A stretch of 64,000 nt of DNA from Octopus sinensis (taxonomy: Eukaryota): positions 10,292,001 to 10,356,000 of the forward strand of contig NC_043003.1 in assembly GCF_006345805.1 (NCBI RefSeq). Direction: 5' to 3'. Of the stretch, positions 8,880 to 64,000 are shown piece after piece. The notes below the pieces were generated by a model. The model saw only the letters and a program-made list of their open reading frames with translations. It ran no database searches and was not told where the DNA came from. Position 1 is the stretch's first letter. The number at the start of each line of letters is the position of its first letter. Position numbers and translations under genes: made by a program.

Positions 8880-9510
8880 GTATTCTTTTCTACTTTAAGC
8901 ACAAGGTCCGAAATTGTGGGAGAGGGGGTGGGGGCAGTCGATTTGATTGTCCTCAGTACGCATCTGGTACTTAATTTATAGATCCCGAAAGGATAAAAGG
9001 CAAAGTCGACCTCGGCGGAATTTGAACTCAGAACGTAAAGACATAGGAAATACCTATTTCTTTACTACCCACAAGGGGGCTAAACACAGAGGGGAGAAAC
9101 AAGGACAGACAAAGGAATTAAGTCGATTATATTGACCCCAGTGCGTAACTGGTACTTATTTAATCGACCCCGAAAGGATGAAAGGCAAAGTCGACTTCGG
9201 CGGAATTTGAACTCAGAAAGTAGCGGCAAACGAAATACCGCTAAGCATTTCGCTAACGTTTCCGCCAGCTCGCCGCCTTCGTATTGACGAAATATTCTTT
9301 TCCTATTCTAGGCACAAGACCCGAAATTTTGGGGTAGGGTGCCAGTCGACTAGATCGACCCCGGTACGAAACTGGTATTTAATTTATCAACCCCGAAAGT
9401 ATGAAATGCAAAGTCGACCTCGGCGGAATTTGAACTCAGAACGTAAAAACAGACGAAATACTGCTAAGCATTTCATCCAGCGTGCTAACGATTCTGCCAT
9501 CTCGCCGCCT
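8880..9510 (-). mobile_element. Array of SINE family C copies
   Basis: Three GTCGACTTTGC(C/A)TTT...GGGGTCGA cores, head GGCGGCGAGCTGGC, two alternative tails. Confidence 0.9.
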
Positions 9511-9840
9511 TGTCCCGTAAGAATAATAGCTAAAGATGGTCTTAGAGTGATTTGAATTCAGCCCAGAGTGTAAATTATCGAAAAAAAATATCACAATGCA
9601 TTCTCTGCGACAAACTAAAAATTCTGCCAACTTAACTCACTTCAGTAAATTTCACTTCGAGTGGAATCTATTTAACAGCCAAGTGGACTGATAAGTGTCT
9701 TTGTCAAGTGCACAAAAGTGATGTTAGTAACAGGATACATAGCTTTGAGTACACGAATCAGATACGTTTCCAATCGATTTTTTTCTTTGTTAGCTACATT
9801 TACAGTAGCTTTAGTTATAATAATAGACAGCAACCAGATA

Positions 9841-17149: not shown

Positions 17150-17555
17150 TCTCTTTTACTCTTTTACATGTTTCAGTCATTTTACTGTGGCCATGCTAGA
17201 GCACCGCCTTTAGTCGAGCAAATCGAACCCAGGACTTATTCTTTGTAAGCCTAGTACTTATTCTCTCGGTCTCTTTTGCCTAACCGCTAAGTTACGGGGA
17301 CGTAAACACACCAGCATCGGTTGTCAGGCGATGTTGGGTGGACAAACACAAACACACAGATATATACACACACATACATATATATATACCTATATACGAT
17401 GGGCTTTTTTCTGTTTCCGTCTACCAAATCCACTCACAAGGCTTTGGTCGGCCCGAGGCTATAGCAGAAGACACTTGCCCAAGGTGCTACGCAGTGGAAC
17501 TGAACCCGGAACCATGTGGTTTGTAAGCAAGCTACTTACCACACAGCCACTCCTG
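17150..17555 (-). mobile_element. SINE family A, full length
   Basis: Head to tail intact; older degenerate copies at about 15955-16130 and 16960-17130. Confidence 0.92.
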
Positions 17556-17963
17556 GTTCCATGACATTCACTATACATCTTTGTAACCGTTGGTTGCTTT
17601 GCGGTGGTTGCTATCGAGGAAAATTGTATGTTTCAGTAGTAAGAGTAATGAGTGTGTATCTTTTGTGCGTATTCATTGTGGAATGGATGTATTAACGTGT
17701 GTCTTGAATAAGACATGTTTTAAGCTGTTATTTATATATTATATATGCAATAAGATCATAGTTGACTTTGTGGTTAGGTGAGTATCACAAACAGCGGAGA
17801 ATCGCGTTGATCGTTAGTAGAAGTAAAAGAAAGGGAAGAGAGTGGAAGAGATATACTGAGAAAGTGAAAGTAGATAGAAAAGGGGAGAGAGGGAGGAGGG
17901 AGATACAGAAGGAGACAGCTAGCAGGCATCAGACGGAGAGACAATTAGCTAGCTAGACAGATA

Positions 17964-18530
17964 TGTTTCTTTATTAGCCACACAGGGATGAACACAGAGG
18001 GGACAAAATACAAAGTAGAGCTTTTCTTTTTGGCAAGAAGAGAAAAAAAAGTGGGTCAAATTTCGATCAAAAGGGATCGTGAAAAAAATGCCGATCAATA
18101 GGGATCGTGTATCACAGAAATGTTAATGTAAAAAGGGAAAACAGATTAGGTTTATCCGTCGAAAGAAAGGCCTACGATAAAGACCACGGTAACCTTAGGC
18201 AATAATGTCATGCAAAAAAGAAAACACATTACAGTAAGTAGTGTGCCATCCTTGCTACATTCACCCATTTTTTTTTAAACATTCACTAGACAAAACTTCC
18301 CTCTCTACTCTCACTTTCCTCTTCAAGTGATACTTGAAGAAGTTGAGAGATTCACCAGAGAGGAAAGTGTTTGTCTCTAGACCTTTCACTAGATGAGTCC
18401 ACCATACACATTCTTTCGCCATAGCCACAAGTACGATGAAAATGGCTCTTCCTTCCCGTTTCAAGGAAGGCGGCACGACAATATTCACGATAGACTCGGT
18501 TGATATACTGACCCTTCCAACACACGATAG
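17964..18530 (-). mobile_element. Tx1/L1-clade LINE 3' fragment (ORF2 C-terminus and 3' UTR)
   Basis: ORF 18261-18488 (...FIVLVAMAKECVWWT...FFKYHLKRKVRVEREVLSSEC) resembles Tx1 ORF2 ends. The UTR ends in AATAAAGAAACA. Near-perfect flanking duplication TAGACAGATA / TAGTCAGATA. Confidence 0.65.
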
Positions 18531-18535
18531 TAGTC

Positions 18536-18585
18536 AGATAGATAAATAGATAGGTAGGTAGGTAGATATGTATGTATGTATGTAA

Positions 18586-18616
<31 letters not shown>

Positions 18617-18771
18617 TGTATGTATGTATGTATGTATGTATGTTGGTATGTAGGTAGGTAGGTAGGTAGGTAGCTAGCTAGCTAGCTAGATACATAGATA
18701 GATAGATAGAGCGACAGACAGACAGACAGATAGATAGATAGACAGAGAGACAGACAGACAGATAAATAGAG

Positions 18772-18866
<95 letters not shown>
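18536..18866. repeat. Compound (TAGG)/(TATG)/(GACA)/(GATA)n microsatellite
   Basis: Seen directly. Confidence 0.95.
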
Positions 18867-19364
18867 CGGAGATCAAAAGAAATGCGAAAGTGACGGCTAT
18901 TAAGTTAGTTGGTAGCTTTATCGAATCAATAACAAAAATAAGTAACGAAATGGAAAACAGAATACACACATACGAACAATGACTGCATGAACACAGCGAG
19001 ATCTTTAACTTCCATAGCACTAATCAAAGGCACTCACAGAATATCCATACACATTTTTAGTCTGGTACTAATCGAATAATTTCTATTTAAAAATAAATCG
19101 AAATTATTTTACCCTGTTCACCTTTTACAAAATAATCCTGAAAATACGGAAACGAAAGTAAAATTGTTATATCATAGTTGTTGAAAATCAATATTTACAA
19201 GAAGAGGGTGACGATTGATAGAGTCATAGCGTGCAGAGTCTTCTTGTCTTCTGTATGACTTCGCTTTTAGTGGCAGCTATTTTGTCTTCACACCTACACT
19301 ATATAGATTCTTGACAAATATCATGGTATTCACGCAATCTCATTTTTCTTTCTCTCCTATATAA

Positions 19365-19706
19365 GTGGCGCATGGCTCAGTGGTTAGAGCGTCGAGCTTA
19401 CGATCGTGAGGTTGTGAGCTCGAATCCCGGACCGGGCTGCGTGTTGTGTTCTTGAGCAAAGCACTTTATTTCACGTTGCTCCAGTTCACTCAGCTGTAGA
19501 AATGAGTTGCGACGTCACTGGTGCCAAGCTGTATCGACCTTTGTCTTTCCCTTGGATAACACTGGTGGCATGGAGAGGGGAGGTTGGTATGCATGGGCGA
19601 CTGCTGGTCTTCCATAAACAACCTTGCCCGGACTTGTGTCTAGGAGGGTAACTTTCTAGGTGCAATCCCATGGTCGTTCATGACCGAAGGGGGTCTTTAC
19701 CCTTTA
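19365..19706 (+). mobile_element. tRNA-derived SINE with a CORE-like domain (family D)
   Basis: TGGCTCAGTGGTTAGAGC and GAGCTCGAATCCC boxes, followed by TTCTTGAGCAAAGCACTT...CAGCTGTAGAAATGAGT. Confidence 0.85.
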
Positions 19707-21487: not shown

Positions 21488-22098
21488 ATATTCTTTTCTT
21501 CTCTAGGCATAAGGCCCGAAAATTTTGGGGGAGGGGGCCAGTCGATTAAATCGACCCCAGTACGCAACTGGTAGTTAATTTATCGACCCCCGAAAGGATG
21601 AAAGGCTAAGTCGACCTTGACCTCAGAACGTAAAGACAGACAAAATACCGCTAAGAATTCCGCCCGGCGTGCTACTGTATCTGCTAGTTCACCGCCCAAA
21701 ATATTTATTTCTTTATTGCCCAAAACAAGGGCAGACAAAGGGGATTAAGCCAGTTACATCGACACCAGTGAGTAACCGGTACTTATTTAATCGATCCCCG
21801 AATGGATGAAAGGCAAAGTCGACCTGGGCGGAATTTGAACTCAGAACTTAACGGCAGACGAAATACCTATTTCTTTACTACCCACAAGGGGCTAAACACA
21901 GAGAGGACAAACAAGGACAGACAAATGGATTAAGTCGATTATATCGACCCCAGTATGTAACTGCTATTTATTTAATCGACCCCGAAAGGTTGAGAGGCAA
22001 AGTCGACCTCGGCGGAATTTGAACTCAGAACGTAGGGGCAGACGAAATACCGCTAAGCATTTCGCCCGGCGTGCTAACGTTTCTACCAGCTCGCCGCC
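21488..22098 (-). mobile_element. Array of SINE family C copies
   Basis: Three cores with nested tail-to-body junctions. Confidence 0.9.
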
Positions 22099-22359
22099 CT
22101 CTAATTGTTATAAATATTTTTACAGAAATGTAGTTTTTATGGTCCCCCTTCCATGTCAGGCTTTCAAATTCATAAGCAATTCGGAAAATTATTCTCCAAT
22201 CGCTATGACATCTACTTTCAGTCTTCATCTTTGAACATATTCATGAAATTTCCAGTGATCACTAAAATTATATGCGCGTATTTAGTTTTTACTTTGATAC
22301 ATGACACGGACATGCATTCACCATATTGAACTATTAATCCCCACACATCTATTTTTTTA

Positions 22360-22870: not shown

Positions 22871-23242
22871 ATATAATGTATTTGTGGAAGACTGACTGGA
22901 AAAGAATTAAATATGTACAATATAAAACAATCGAATATTATTTCATCGATGGATTCTGTCTCAAACGAGGAAACGAATCCACTTTGTTGAACGTAATTGA
23001 AGAAGATTTAATTAGTCATTTTGCTTTCTTTTAGTTCTTTTTATTTCTAGTCAGGAAAAAAAGACCAAGATTTGTGAATATTCAATAATTCTCTAAAGAC
23101 CATTGCAGAATTAGCCGTATCAACAATAATAAGAAGGAACATACTAGCCTTTTGCAATATAGAAAAAGTTGCTGTTATTTAATCAAGCAATCGCTTAATT
23201 AATTGATTAGATGCTAATGAAGAGACAAATCATAATACTAAA

Positions 23243-23457
23243 GGTTTCAAATATTGGCACAAGGCCAGCCGTTTCTATGGAGGGGATAGGTCGATTTCAT
23301 TGGCCCCCAGTACTCAGCTAGTACTTATTTTATCGATCCCGAAAGGAGGGAAAACAAAGTTCAGCTCACTAGGGTTTGAACTCAAAATGTAAGGACGAAC
23401 GAAATGCAGCTAAGCAAGTTGCCCAACGTGCTAACGATTTTACGCACTCGCCGCCAT
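23243..23457 (-). mobile_element. SINE family C, degenerate
   Basis: Colinear with the family C copies. Confidence 0.75.
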
Positions 23458-26800: not shown

Positions 26801-27001
26801 ATGTATGTAGTTGTAACGAGTTCTTACCGGTCGCTGAAATGACACCACACTGTGACGAGGGCAATGAAATAACAACACAAATTCAATTATATAAATCAGC
26901 TTTGATTGTAATGTCACAGCTGAACAGTAATTATGACTATTGAAGTTATCGTTACAATAAAAAGTTGTGTTAATTTGAATATTAGTATTACTCTTATTAT
27001 T

Positions 27002-27227
27002 AAGGTGGCTAGCTGGCTGAACAGTTAACACGCCGGACAAAATAATTAGCGACATTTAAATTTTGAGCTGAATTTTCATCCAGGTCGACTTTGCATTTCA
27101 TCTTTCCGGGGTCGGTAAAATTAGTACTAGTCGAGCACTAGGGTCTGTGTAATGAACTTACACCATCCCGCCAAATTCCTGGCCTTGGGCCAAAAGTTTA
27201 AATTATTATTACTACTATTATTATTAC

Positions 27228-27272
<45 letters not shown>

Positions 27273-27705
27273 GGCGGCGAGCTGGCAGATTCGTTACTGC
27301 GCTGGACGAAATGCCTAGCGGTATTTCGCCCGTCGCCACGTTCTGAGTTCAAATTCCACCGAGGTCGATTTTGCCTTTCATCTTTTCGGGGTCGATTAAA
27401 TAGGTACCAGTTACGCATTGGGGTTAATGTAATCGACAAGTCCCATTCCCCAAATTTTCAGGCCTTGTACCTTTATTAGGAAGGATTATTATTATTATTA
27501 TCGTTATTATTATTAAGGCGGCGAGCTGACAGCACCGTTAGTGTGTCGGACAAAATGCTGAGCGGCATTTACGTTTTGCTGATATCGACTTTGCCTTCCG
27601 TCCTGTCGTGGTCAATAAAATAAGTACCAGTCAAATACTGTGTCAAAGTAATCGACTTCCCCTCCCCTCAAAAACACTAGGGCCAGTGCCAAGATTTGAA
27701 AGGAT
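27002..27705 (+). mobile_element. Three tandem SINE family C copies separated by (TTA)n
   Basis: Heads at about 27002, 27271 and 27515. Confidence 0.85.
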
Positions 27706-29174
27706 TGTCATTGTCATTCTTAGTTTGTCATTCTCTAGAGTCGATCTTATTGCTTAACTCCGTTCCCTCAAAATCGTTAGCGTAAATCAGAAACAGTTAT
27801 TCTTGATATAATAAGGGCGATGGCTCTGGTCTTTAGTAGTTGTAGTAGCAGTCTGTAAATGAAGCTGCATTAATATGAAGGCTTTTAGCAACCAACAATT
27901 CCTAAAGGATGGCATTTAAAAAATATATATCACTTATGTCTGACCATCGTGTCACGTGAATGTTGTAAAGCAATGTTATTGGTTACCAAGTTAAATATGA
28001 AAAAGTGCGCAAGAAGGAGTAAGGATTTATTGCCGAATCATTAGGACTTACACTGTAAACTTTAAAAACCGTAACGAATCAGACAAATTATAAGTTACCA
28101 TGCCAAAGGGAAGTTAGCCTGACGCCGCTAGACTAGCATGGGCGAGGAGTGATATTATGCAAATAGGGACAAAAAATATCGAGTACTTAGGTGGAAAATA
28201 TGTTACGAATCAGTCACTCATAACCCAAATTATTGTCCAGAGAAAGTTGTTAATTAATTGAAATAAAAACCCTGGAGTCAATCTAACGTTTGTTGTTGCT
28301 TGTGAATGAGTTGTTTTTTTTTCCTTAATTCAAGAAGTTATCAAGTCTCCATAGCATTCGAATTAATCGGGAATCGACATATAATCAACTGGAATACTCG
28401 TCGTCGCAACCGACGCAGTGCCACGATATTATATCGAGTTGTTATTATGACAGAAGGTTGTTGTTGGTGTTGATGGTGGTGCTGGTGGTGGTGGTGGTGC
28501 TGGTCGTCGTGCTGATGCCGTTGGTGGCATCGGCAGCGGTGGTGCTGGTAATGGCAGTGGTGGTCGTAGCAGCAGTGTTGACGGTTGTGGCACGGACAGT
28601 AATAGTGATGGTGTTAGTGATTGTCTGTGACGTAGGCTTTTATATTTATCACTATTGTTTGCGTTTAATACTAATTACTATATATTCAGTTTTATTTATT
28701 CGTTTTATTATCTAGAATGAATACAAATGTTTATCATTTTTCAGTTATTTTATATCTATATTTATTCATTTATTCATTTTGTTATTTTTTTCTTTAGTTG
28801 TTTGATGTAGAGAATTATTTTTTTTTGTTTGGGAATTTATTGAATAGAAACTTGACTCTGTTTTTTTTTATGAAGTTCGCTATTTATGGCGTGTAATTAC
28901 GGTTATATACTTTTTTATGCGGCCTCGCGGACGACTTGTAGCTTCGCTAATAATTATTTTGTTGTGCGGGCGTGTGTTTGTAGCAGTATGTTTATATTTA
29001 GTGAATTCTGGGTGTGGGCGGTTTCTGACAAATTTCCATTATGTTTCTTTCGATTGCGCTTGTTTGAAGTTTGTAAAAACGGTTTTGCTTTCTTCATTGA
29101 TGTGTCTGTGCGTTGTGCCGACAATTGGTAGATGGTCTCAGGTAACTTAGGCAATTGTTGGCTAAGCGGTTGTG

Positions 29175-30050
29175 ATATCCTTTTCTACTCAAGGCACAAG
29201 GCTCGAAATTTTGGGGGAGGGGGCCAGTCGATTAGATCCACCCCAGTACGCAACTGGTACTTAATTTATCAACCTCGAATGGATGATCAGCAAAGTCGTC
29301 CTCGGCGGAATTTGAACTCAAAACCTAGAGACAGACGAATAACCGCTAAGCATTTCGCCCGGCGCGATAACGTTTCTTATTTCTTTATTGCCCACAAGGA
29401 GCTAAACATAGAGAGTACAACAAGGACAGACAAAGGGATTAAGTCGAGTACATCGACCCCAATGTGTAACTCAGAACGTAAAGACAGAAGAAATACCGCT
29501 AAGCATTTCGCCCGGCGCGCCACCGTTTCTGCCAGTTCACCGCCTAAATATTTATTTATTTATTGTTCAAAACAAGGACAGACAAAGAGGATTGAGTCGA
29601 TTACATCAACCCAGTGCTTAACCAATACTTATATAATCGACCCCGAAAAGATGAAAGGCAAAGTCGACCTCGGCGGAAGTCAAACTCAGAAAGTAAAGAC
29701 AGACGAATTACCTATTTCTTTACTACTCACAAGGGGCTAAACACAGAGGGGACAAACAAGGACAGACAAAGGGATGAAGTCGATTATAACGACCCCAGTG
29801 CGTAACTGGTACTTAATTTATCGACGCCGAAGGATGAAAGGCAAAGTCGACCTCGACGGAATTTGAACTCAGAACGTAACGGCAGACGAAATACGCATTT
29901 CGCCCGGCGTGCTAACGTTTCTGCCAGCTTGCTGCCTTAAGAAATCTAAATATTCTTTTCTACTCTATGCACAAGGCTCGAAATTTTTGGGGAAAGGGCC
30001 AATCGATTAGATCGACTCTAGTACGCAACTGGTACTTAATTTATCGATCC
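29175..30050 (-). mobile_element. Large nested array of SINE family C
   Basis: Five or more partial copies with repeated cores and tails. Confidence 0.9.
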
Positions 30051-30223
30051 CAGTAGGAAAAAGAATACTGCAGAGGACTGCAACAGCCGTAGTATACAGA
30101 AACCATTCCGTTTAAGAGAAAGCTTACTTTAGCACATGTTTCATCTATAAGGTTCCGCTAGATAAATAAAATTAACTAGCAATTAAAAATATTTGCATTT
30201 GTGTGCAAGCATATATGTATATA

Positions 30224-33996: not shown

Positions 33997-34228
33997 AAGG
34001 CGGCGAGCTGGCAGAAATGTTAGCACGCCGGGCGAAATGCTTAGCGGTATTTCGTCTGCGTTACGTTGTGAGTTCAAATTCCGCGGAGGTCGACTTTGCC
34101 TTTCATCCTTTCGGGGTCGATAAATTAAGTACCAGTTACGCACTGGGGTTGATGTAATCGACTTAATACCTGTGTCTGTCCTTGTTTGTCTGCTCTGTGT
34201 TTAGCCCCTTGTGGGTAATAAAGAAATA
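33997..34228 (+). mobile_element. SINE family C, full length, Tx1-like tail
   Basis: 17-bp TSD GGTAGTTATGGAGGCAT (33980-33996 and 34229-34245). Confidence 0.93.
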
Positions 34229-62567: not shown

Positions 62568-62799
62568 AAGGCGGCAAGCTGGCAGAAACTTTAGCACGCC
62601 GGGCGAAATGCTTAGCGGTATTTCATCTGCCGTTACGTTCTGAGTTCAAATTCCGCCGAGGTCGACTTTGCCTTTCATCCTTTCGGGGTCGATAAATTAA
62701 GTATCAGTTACACACTGGGGTCAATGTAATCGACTTAATCCATTTGTCTGTCCTTGTTTGTCCCCTCTATGTTTAGCCCCTTATGGGCAATAAAGAAAT
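62568..62799 (+). mobile_element. SINE family C, full length, nested in an older inverted copy (62545-62995)
   Basis: 14-bp TSD AAGTTTTGGCACAA (62551-62564 and 62800-62813). Confidence 0.92.
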
Positions 62800-63204
62800 A
62801 AGTTTTGGCACAAGACTGATAGTTTAAAGTTTGTGGTGGGGGGGTTCAAATGGTACATATTTTATCAATTCGAAGGAATGAACAGCAAATTCGAACACGG
62901 GGCGATTGAACATCAAAGCCGAATGTAATAAACCGGAAAAAAGCTGCTCGGCAATTTTGTTCGGTGAGCTAACGATTGTTCTAACTCGCCGCTTTTCTCA
63001 GCATAGTAATAGATAGAGCTTAGAGGAAAACCAACGAAGGATGAAGGATTCCCTTCATCTGGGAGATATATAACAGCCACATTACCATCAAATTATATCC
63101 TGACGTCGCCAAAGATAGACAGACTGGTTGGCCAGTATGAATCTAGATTTAAGAAGACGAACCGATTGGAATAACTTTATTGATATGTCTAACAGTTAGA
63201 GATA

Positions 63205-63485: not shown

Positions 63486-63811
63486 ACCTGGAGCAGGGCT
63501 AGTCTCAGGATAAACAACAATATTTCAAATCCAAAATAGGCCCCTGTCTCTGCAAAATATCCTTTCCTCTTCTAAGTAGGCGATTTAAAAATCCATAATC
63601 ATAGATTGCATTTTGTGAAGTAGCATACATAAGACATATAAAAAATTAAGAGGGTGTATCAGAGATACATGGGATTGTATGAAGTGTAAAGCAATCCTAA
63701 TAAATGTACAATAGTGTGTTGGGAACATTATTCGTCATAAAACAGTTGTCCTCCGATTACGAAACAAAACAGCAATTAACATATTCAGGTCCGAAGAAGC
63801 TTGAGCATATT

Positions 63812-64000
63812 GGTTTCAAATTTTGGCACGAGGCCAGCAATTTCGAGGCAGAGAGTAAGTCGATTCGATCGACCCCAGTGCTCTACTGGAACTTATTTGG
63901 TCGACCGCGAAAGGGTAAAAGTCAAAGTTGATAGAATAAGTAATAGGCTTCAAAATAAAAACCCCTCGGGACGATTTCTTCGACTAAAACCCTTTAAAGC
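63812..64000. mobile_element. SINE C (-) and SINE A (+) fragments
   Basis: gtcgattcgatcgaccccagt, then gatagaataagtaataggctt...cgactaaa. Confidence 0.7.

What the first reader, a model, noticed from the sequence alone, without database searches (positions are those of the whole stretch)
17964..18008. SINE family C shares its 3' tail with a Tx1/L1-like LINE in this window
Seen: the LINE end (minus strand) TTTGTCCCCTCTGTGTTCATCCCTGTGTGGCTAATAAAGAAACA versus the SINE tail at 62757-62800, TTTGTCCCCTCTATGTTTAGCCCCTTATGGGCAATAAAGAAATA. SINE copies with this tail have 14-17 bp TSDs. Known: SINEs borrow the 3' tail of the LINE that mobilises them, but L1-clade partners usually need only poly(A). Inference: a stringent Tx1-SINE partnership, which is rarely reported in animals. 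Family C has a second tail (GGCCTTGTGCCTAG...GAAAAGAATA) implying another partner.
Basis: partly seen in the sequence, partly recalled or inferred. Interest (0 to 1): 0.72.

Follow-up and report, generated by a model that had tools for sequence, protein, structure and literature searches.

The report
Octopus SINE borrows Tx1/L1 hairpin tail
An abundant short mobile repeat (SINE) in what is likely an octopus genome ends in the same 43-base, poly(A)-less tail as a high-copy L1/Tx1-type jumping gene, so it likely rides on that lineage by mimicking a small predicted RNA hairpin, a pairing that the papers searched list for L1-type elements only in plants and an alga.

Summary
Confirmed. Window 17964-18537 (-) is a 5'-truncated LINE whose last 43 bases match the SINE tail (34-35 of 43; 28.3 bits against at most 8.6 in 50 shuffled windows). 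The tail belongs to the LINE: contigs of other copies bridge UTR and tail. The window holds no RT, but full-length relatives (73% over the fragment) are L1/Tx1-superfamily; narrow Tx1 placement is likely, not resolved. New here: the SINE's second tail matches the true 3' ends of the sister LINE lineage in unrelated host DNA (8 of 8 sister ends, 0 of 23 other LINE ends). All tail types align on a small C-CUYGU-G hairpin with compensatory stems, without poly(A). Both tails therefore likely come from one Tx1/L1 lineage. Against: single tails fold no better than shuffles; the LINE copy sits in (TATC)n while tail-1 SINEs do not, so the mobiliser may be a sibling family; stringency is untested. The scan noted hairpin-ended L1-like ends in another genome (e1-7633483), without a SINE. 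Repbase and Dfam were not checkable. New variant; interest 0.62.

The parts
17964..18537 (-). 5'-truncated L1/Tx1-superfamily LINE copy (end of ORF2 plus about 280 nt of 3' UTR), no poly(A); the 5' junction is approximate
   Evidence: tblastn 73% over 89 aa to P0007 residues 1040-1127; high depth of related copies in 4 of 4 runs
18244..18533 (-). ORF2 C-terminal remnant, downstream of the zf-RVT motif, frameshifted near 18270
17965..18007 (-). 3' tail shared with SINE family C (tail 1), ending in AATAAAGAAAC
   Evidence: bridged in other copies
17976..17989 (-). predicted small hairpin of the LINE tail; this copy has a stem mismatch at 17988, where 91-99% of laid depth (LINE and SINE contigs mixed) reads the SINE-type base
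   Evidence: inference
18540..18870 (.). (TATC)n/(TACA)n/(TACC)n microsatellite at the LINE's 5' junction; a degenerate TATC-like run also follows the 3' end
   Evidence: possible 9-bp TSD with 1 mismatch, ambiguous inside the repeat
62568..62800 (+). SINE family C monomer: tRNA-like head (inferred), UCON3-like body, tail 1; 14-bp TSD
33997..34228 (+). SINE family C monomer with tail 1; 17-bp TSD
21490..22101 (-). compound family C element: tail 1 internal, tail 2 terminal; imperfect TSD (22 bp, 3 mismatches)
8882..9280 (-). family C dimer: tail 1 internal, tail 2 terminal; TSD 18 bp with 2 mismatches
29176..29938 (-). compound family C element with two internal tail-1 copies and terminal tail 2; no TSD found
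9294..9511 (-). family C monomer with tail 2; no TSD found
29952..30051 (-). 5'-truncated family C copy with tail 2
27001..27706 (+). three older family C copies with tail-2 variants inside (TTA)n
23240..23455 (-). old family C copy (25% from the majority) with a tail-2 variant
63808..63931 (-). old truncated family C copy whose tail-2 variant closely resembles the end of sister LINE L081

Best explanation
Family C is a SINE that shares its last 43 bases with the 3' end of a high-copy L1/Tx1-superfamily LINE and likely acquired both of its tails from LINEs of this one lineage, whose reverse transcriptase likely recognises a predicted small terminal hairpin rather than poly(A). Shown: tail 1 is the true 3' end of many LINE copies; neither LINE nor SINE has poly(A); tail 2 matches the 3' end of the sister LINE lineage; all tail types align on a C-C-U-Y-G-U-G core with complementary flanks. 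Inferred mechanism: the SINE is transcribed by Pol III from its tRNA-like head. ORF2p of a lineage member binds the hairpin and the AAUAAAG-type end, nicks the target with its APE endonuclease and primes reverse transcription there, leaving 14-18-bp TSDs. Tails were swapped by template switching, which also gave the multimers. The family that moves tail-1 SINEs may be a sibling of the window's LINE rather than that family itself.
For: Tail match far above chance. In one search, three listed contigs of other copies (X2 record 17, X9 records 25 and 26; 16-18 other letters each) cover UTR plus the whole tail, two of them running on into other flanks; only 32 of over 22,000 pieces were shown. At 18008, 489,046 of 648,444 depth in X1 (116 contigs) reads a base that is not the SINE's. 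Relatives P0007 and P0010 have APE endonuclease, RT and zf-RVT; the best PDB match is human L1 ORF2p at E 1.5e-53 against R2 at 2.7e-19. Trees join the octopod clade (it includes an Argonauta hians protein) with a sister clade at full support, among U2- and 5S-inserted elements. Sister LINEs end in pyrimidine tract, A-run, AGGC-CUYGU-GCCU hairpin, a second hairpin and AATAAAG; an array start lacks this module and a 5'-truncated unit keeps it. The tail-2 HMM built before those loci were fetched hits 7 of 8 sister 3' regions (4.6-15.5 bits) and none of 23 other LINE 3' regions above 0 bits; the broader HMM hits 8 of 8 (9.7-18.8 bits) and 0 of 23; 1000 shuffles each of 3 regions never reached 12 bits. 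Hairpin: 89% of cells paired, 3 of 4 pairs changed on both sides, slid controls 27-54%. Precedent for stem-loop recognition: PMC4176376 (passages), PMC3747384 (passages).
Against: Single tails fold no better than shuffles (z -1.2 to +1.2, 11 of 11 sequences). The covariation rests on only three or four tail types, the structure was read off the same alignment, and the window's LINE copy does not pair in the SINE register (6-nt loop, one stem mismatch). Tail 1 differs from this LINE copy at 8-9 of 43 bases, while tail-1 SINE bodies are 2-8% from their majority. The LINE lies in (TATC)n and other copies are followed by TATC repeats (loose ends at 17946), but the two tail-1 monomers are not in microsatellites. 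The tail-1 HMM does not hit any of the 8 sister ends. No octopod LINE with tail 2 was recovered; that match is cross-species. The broader tail-2 HMM was built after I saw the match, and many of the 23 control 3' regions are short (56-900 nt). Tree backbone is weak (SH-aLRT 93; composition warnings). No assay.
Confidence: 0.7

Rival explanations
1. The tail was captured from this LINE lineage long ago but is now a passenger or only a polyadenylation-like signal; the SINE is moved by relaxed recognition or by another LINE.
For: 15-20% tail difference; target mismatch; weak folding energy; 4 of 6 tail-1 copies are internal; the tail holds AATAAA.
Against: No poly(A) on any copy; young monomers end exactly at the LINE's 3' end with TSD next to it; stems keep pairing across tail types; three tail-1 copies have AGTAAA instead of AATAAA.
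Confidence: 0.15
2. Reverse direction: this octopod LINE family took its 3' end from the SINE (tail 1 arose in the SINE).
For: Tail 1 has no significant match in sister LINE ends; the SINE is abundant.
Against: Sister LINEs in other host DNA already end in the same hairpin core plus AATAAAG without any SINE body (body HMM: 0 hits in sister loci); homology stops at 18007 and includes no SINE body.
Confidence: 0.07
3. Tail 1 is from this lineage, but tail 2 comes from another clade (for example R4/Dong, given copies in (TTA)n) and resembles the sister LINE ends by convergence.
For: Three tail-2-variant copies sit in (TTA)n; Dong-R4 is the most numerous recently active LINE group in O. vulgaris (PMC13282606 Table 1); that Dong targets (TAA)n is recalled, not checked. 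The match is about 33 nt and cross-species.
Against: The match is on the right strand at the 3' end in 8 of 8 sister regions and 0 of 23 others; shuffles do not reach it.
Confidence: 0.2
4. A SINE fragment happened to insert at the end of this one LINE copy.
For: SINE contigs also lay on the tail (loose ends at 17966), so depth there is mixed.
Against: Other LINE copies bridge UTR and tail with different flanks, in runs of three organism labels.
Confidence: 0.02

Closest known systems
L1-clade SINE/LINE pairs of plants and algae: ZmSINE2/ZmSINE3 with LINE1-1_ZM; SINEX-3_CR with L1-1_CR (Ohshima 2012 PMC3472496, passages; Ohshima 2013 PMC3747384, passages and Table 1)
   Same: SINE shares a short 3' end (about 45 nt in the monocot case) with an L1-clade LINE; hairpin with compensatory changes; read as stringent recognition.
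   Different: Animal host; no poly(A) or poly(T) end; different loop (CUYGU); two interchangeable tails. [quoted passage not shown]
SINEU and Tx1-Mar of crocodilians (Kojima 2015 PMC4494074, parts 1-3 of 5 read)
   Same: Animal SINE proposed to be moved by Tx1.
   Different: That link rests on shared target and snRNA-derived heads; SINEU has poly(A), and the paper found no LINE similar to the SINEU-1 3' half. Here the link is a shared 3' tail.
Stringent L2/CR1/RTE/Nimb SINE-LINE pairs (UnaL2, ZfL2; bivalve SINEs) (PMC4176376 passages; PMC11481361 section 13; PMC4824008 part 2 and passages)
   Same: 35-61-nt shared tails at 72-95% identity; tail swapping on a conserved body; stem-loop recognition.
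   Different: Partner clade: the bivalve partners named are CR1, CR1-Zenon, L2 and Nimb, not L1/Tx1.
UCON3-domain SINEs (Kojima 2020 PMC7245038, passages and Fig. S2 rows)
   Same: The family C body matches the UCON3 domain at about 36-37 of 48 bases (by-eye comparison with two rows); these SINEs swap tails.
   Different: The 21 rows seen are chordates, nematodes, cnidarians and xenacoelomorphs, no mollusc; their named tails are RTE or CR1.
Octopus OK, OR1, OR2 SINEs (Ohshima and Okada 1994; seen only as cited in other papers)
   Same: tRNA-derived octopus SINEs; family C may be one of them.

Membership tests
L1/Tx1 superfamily LINE | ORF2 with N-terminal APE endonuclease, RT and C-terminal zinc finger; RT closer to L1 than to R2-type | tested here: met
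   On relatives, since the window has no RT: P0007 has PF03372, PF00078, PF13966; human L1 ORF2p E 1.5e-53, R2 2.7e-19; window fragment 73% to P0007.
Tx1 clade (narrow sense) | RT phylogeny groups with Tx1, Keno, Kibi, Koshi apart from vertebrate L1 | tested here: inconclusive
   Own well-supported branch (100) in an unresolved group (93) with U2-inserted and 5S-inserted elements and two unnamed L1-like rows. RT identity 41% to U2-inserted elements against 31-33% to those two rows. No named Tx1 or mammalian L1 sequence was in the tree.
Tx1 clade (narrow sense) | Target preference (microsatellites, RNA genes, other repeats) | tested here: inconclusive
   Window copy in (TATC)n; other copies followed by TATC repeats, which could also be a terminal repeat; one bridging contig is not so followed. 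Sister family forms tandem arrays.
Tx1 clade (narrow sense) | ORF1 with CCHC zinc knuckle (recalled feature) | tested here: inconclusive
   Found in sister ORF1 of L082 (E 1e-5), not in L081; the octopod ORF1 was not recovered.
Stringent SINE-LINE pair | Shared 3'-terminal sequence at the true end of both elements | tested here: met
Stringent SINE-LINE pair | Conserved stem-loop with compensatory changes | tested here: inconclusive
   Covariation above both controls but few independent events; single-sequence folding not above shuffles.
Stringent SINE-LINE pair | Tail required for retrotransposition or bound by ORF2p | not testable with these tools
   Needs an assay.
Stringent SINE-LINE pair | Co-activity and shared TSD length and target logo | tested here: inconclusive
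   SINE TSDs 14 and 17 bp (n=2); sister LINE spacers about 11-17 nt; LINE TSD ambiguous; contexts differ; no genome held.
tRNA-derived SINE (SINE2) | tRNA-derived head with A and B boxes | tested here: inconclusive
   A- and B-box-like motifs by eye; ARAGORN and Rfam found nothing in the window.
UCON3-domain SINE | About 50-nt UCON3 domain between head and tail | tested here: met
   By-eye match 36-37 of 48 to two rows of Fig. S2 of PMC7245038; no statistic computed.
MetaSINE | 66-bp Meta domain | tested here: not met
   No resemblance by eye to BivaMeta and BivaMD sequences; three body motifs absent from that supplement.

The most novel reading that the evidence does not exclude
An unnamed animal Tx1/L1 sub-lineage, present in octopods and other animals, uses a conserved poly(A)-independent C-CUYGU-G hairpin as its reverse-transcription signal, and one of the octopus's major SINE families has captured that signal twice from two members of the lineage. 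This would be the first animal SINE with an L1/Tx1-derived stringent tail and an animal example of the stringent state proposed as ancestral for the L1 clade.
Probability: 0.45. Interest if true: 0.78.

Novelty: new variant of a known kind. Interest (0 to 1): 0.62.

Why it matters
Mammalian L1 moves any poly(A) RNA, and whether the L1 clade was once sequence-specific is open; the tail-sharing cases in the papers read are plant and algal. An animal L1/Tx1 lineage with a short, covarying, poly(A)-less 3' signal and a SINE that copies it gives a direct test in animal cells (mutate and rescue a 4-bp stem). It would also name the engine behind part of the octopus SINE expansion (SINEs are 11.6% of the O. 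vulgaris genome and almost all recently active ones are unclassified; PMC13282606 part 1).

Tried and rejected
No genome is held for the window, so no genome-wide consensus, target logo or age profile. No DNA of the octopod LINE family itself was found: metagenome and genome scans with the C-terminal alignment and three viral scans found nothing; two searches gave only more distant relatives. No RNA holder was listed; X15 is only guessed to be RNA, so nothing is claimed about expression. Rfam and ARAGORN: nothing in the window. The Atlas gave only generic endonuclease/RT clusters without taxa; cluster names gave no Tx1 label. My first guess that the SINE body is a Meta domain was rejected. Self-targeting of family C into itself was rejected in favour of compound elements, because single TSDs flank two whole multimers. 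The idea that the sister module is an inserted SINE or a 5' UTR was rejected. Trees used 87 of 237 RT rows after redundancy pruning and 36 hand-picked ORF2 rows. Literature: nine searches showed no paper reporting an animal SINE with a Tx1/L1-derived tail; 'Tx1' has no occurrence in the main text of PMC4824008, PMC11481361, PMC5786205 or PMC7245038. Repbase, Dfam, SINEBase, the O. vulgaris repeat library, Ohshima and Okada 1994 and figures or supplements not held as text could not be seen and may already record this pair.

Full report
Observation. The last 43 bases of the element at 17964-18537 (-) match four ungapped SINE tails at 34-35 of 43. A profile of six SINE tails scores the LINE end at 28.3 bits, E 7.5e-8; 50 shuffled windows gave at most 8.6 bits. 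The element is a 574-bp 5'-truncated remnant: about 95 codons of ORF2 C-terminus, frameshifted, then about 280 nt of UTR, with no RT and no poly(A). Named homologues are from Octopus bimaculoides and Argonauta hians, so the window is likely an octopus genome (inference). No assembly was held.

Is the tail part of the LINE? Yes. Contigs of four public runs (three organism labels, four studies) were laid on 17890-18545 at 80% likeness. Depth over the LINE body reaches 1e5-2e6, against 26-77 for the single contigs listed for X1 and X2; the tool warns that this is no copy number, but it shows a high-copy family. Three listed contigs of other copies (X2 record 17, X9 records 25 and 26; 16-18 other letters) span UTR and the whole tail, two of them continuing into different flanks; several more cross the junction. 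Only 32 of over 22,000 pieces were shown. At 18008, the base just before the shared stretch, most depth reads a base that is not the SINE's. SINE contigs also lay on the tail, so depth within it is mixed.

What LINE is it? The fragment is 73% identical to P0007, a 1148-aa ORF2 with APE endonuclease, RT and zf-RVT, whose best solved relative is human L1 ORF2p (E 1.5e-53; R2 2.7e-19). Octopod-clade proteins are about 70-90% alike, so several sibling families exist. Related loci gave functional markers: elements inserted in U2 snRNA genes (L003, L005, L007, L008) and before 5S rRNA (L011, L119), targets listed for Tx1 families in PMC4494074 (parts 1-3). Trees of the RT (87 of 237 rows) and of whole ORF2 (36 rows) put the octopod clade with a sister clade at full support, inside a weakly resolved group (93) that holds those markers and two unnamed L1-like rows. 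RT identity is 41% to the U2-inserted elements and 31-33% to those rows. L1/Tx1 superfamily is established; Tx1 in the narrow sense is likely but not shown.

The SINE. Family C has a tRNA-like head (by eye; no ARAGORN or Rfam hit), a body matching the UCON3 domain (about 36-37 of 48 by eye against PMC7245038 Fig. S2) and two tail types. Of six complete tail-1 copies, two are monomers with perfect 14- and 17-bp TSDs; four lie inside dimers or multimers that end in tail 2, two of which have imperfect 18- and 22-bp TSDs. Tail-1 bodies are 2-8% from the majority; tail-2 monomers and variants 11-26%.

The second tail. The sister clade is represented by tandem arrays in a GTDB MAG (L081-L118, L121, L124; ORF2 41-44% to P0010; likely animal host DNA, host not determined). 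Their units end in a pyrimidine tract, an A-run, AGGC-CUYGU-GCCU, a second hairpin and AATAAAG. This is the 3' end: conservation stops just after AATAAAG, an array start (L088) lacks the module, and a 5'-truncated unit (L111) keeps it. The tail-2 profile built before these loci were fetched hits 7 of 8 sister 3' regions and none of 23 other LINE 3' regions above 0 bits; a broader profile built afterwards hits 8 of 8 and 0 of 23; 1000 shuffles of each of three regions stayed under 12 bits against 18.8, 12.8 and 11.2 observed. The eight regions are subfamilies from one genome, about two independent families, and many control regions are short. The SINE body does not match them, and the tail-1 profile does not hit them.

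A shared signal. MAFFT aligns the LINE tail, tail 1, tail 2 and sister ends on one core. A 4-bp stem around a 5-nt loop pairs in 89% of cells; three of four pairs change on both sides (C-G in tail 1, G-C in tail 2 and sisters), the closing C-G is nearly fixed, and slid controls pair in 27-54%. Against it: the changes reflect three or four tail types, not 23 events; the structure was read off this alignment; single tails fold no better than shuffles; the window's LINE has a 6-nt loop and one stem mismatch, at a base where most laid depth reads the SINE-type letter.

Mechanism. Most likely the SINE captured LINE 3' ends by template switching and is copied by target-primed reverse transcription when ORF2p of this lineage recognises the hairpin and A-rich end, as shown for L2 elements (PMC4176376, passages). 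Recognition and direction of capture are inferred. The exact mobiliser is open: tail 1 differs from this LINE copy by 8-9 of 43 bases, and the LINE is tied to (TATC)n while the two tail-1 monomers are not, so a sibling family is as plausible.

Known or new. Ohshima counted three SINEs with L1 tails among 58 pairs, all plant or algal (PMC3472496 passages; PMC3747384 passages and Table 1). SINEU is tied to Tx1 by target and heads, not by a tail. Bivalve SINE partners are CR1, CR1-Zenon, L2 and Nimb (PMC11481361 section 13). The octopus repeat papers list L1-Tx1 and mostly unclassified SINEs, with no partner analysis in what I read (PMC13282606 part 1 of 3 and supplement search; PMC8967140 passages). 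Nine searches found no animal Tx1/L1-tailed SINE; Repbase, Dfam, SINEBase and the 1994 octopus SINE paper were not visible and may record it. Verdict: real, a new variant of a known kind, interest 0.62.

Noticed in passing
window 21490-22101 (-), 29176-29938 (-), 8882-9280 (-): Family C forms compound dimers and multimers with the same junction (tail 1 followed by the body from about position 50); two have single flanking TSDs, so they likely moved as units through tail 2.
   Followed up: partly
window 62645-62710 (+) and other family C bodies; L019 763-821: The body matches the UCON3 SINE domain, for which the rows seen in PMC7245038 Fig. S2 include no mollusc.
   Followed up: partly
window 17151-17562 (-) and about 20 other matches: A second, 400-bp SINE family with a CORE-like motif (recalled) and an internal (TA)n; its end shares a short stretch with the family C body and a TGACTGAAA motif with the bivalve MetaSINE tail, hinting at a different partner (possibly Nimb).
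   Followed up: no
window 17964-18870: The LINE copy lies at a (TATC)n microsatellite, and other copies are followed by TATC repeats: possibly a GATA-microsatellite-targeting Tx1 family, or a terminal repeat.
   Followed up: partly
L081-L118, L121, L124 (handle G001): A GTDB MAG titled Arenicella holds at least 40 matches to an L1/Tx1 element end in head-to-tail arrays of about 6.5 kb units; likely host-animal contamination of the MAG. The second terminal hairpin varies in sequence but keeps pairing.
   Followed up: partly
L003, L005, L007, L008; L011, L119: Metagenome and MAG contigs hold U2-inserted (Keno-like) and 5S-inserted Tx1 elements; P0005, named as a Herbaspirillum protein, is likely host LINE contamination.
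   Followed up: partly
P0104 cluster: Patella caerulea relatives have consecutive locus tags on one contig, suggesting tandem or target-specific insertion.
   Followed up: no
window 27001-27706 (+): Three older family C copies with tail-2 variants cluster in (TTA)n repeats, which may mark a further mobiliser.
   Followed up: no
window 19361-19700 (-): A further repeat of about 340 bp with partial matches at five other places; not classified.
   Followed up: no
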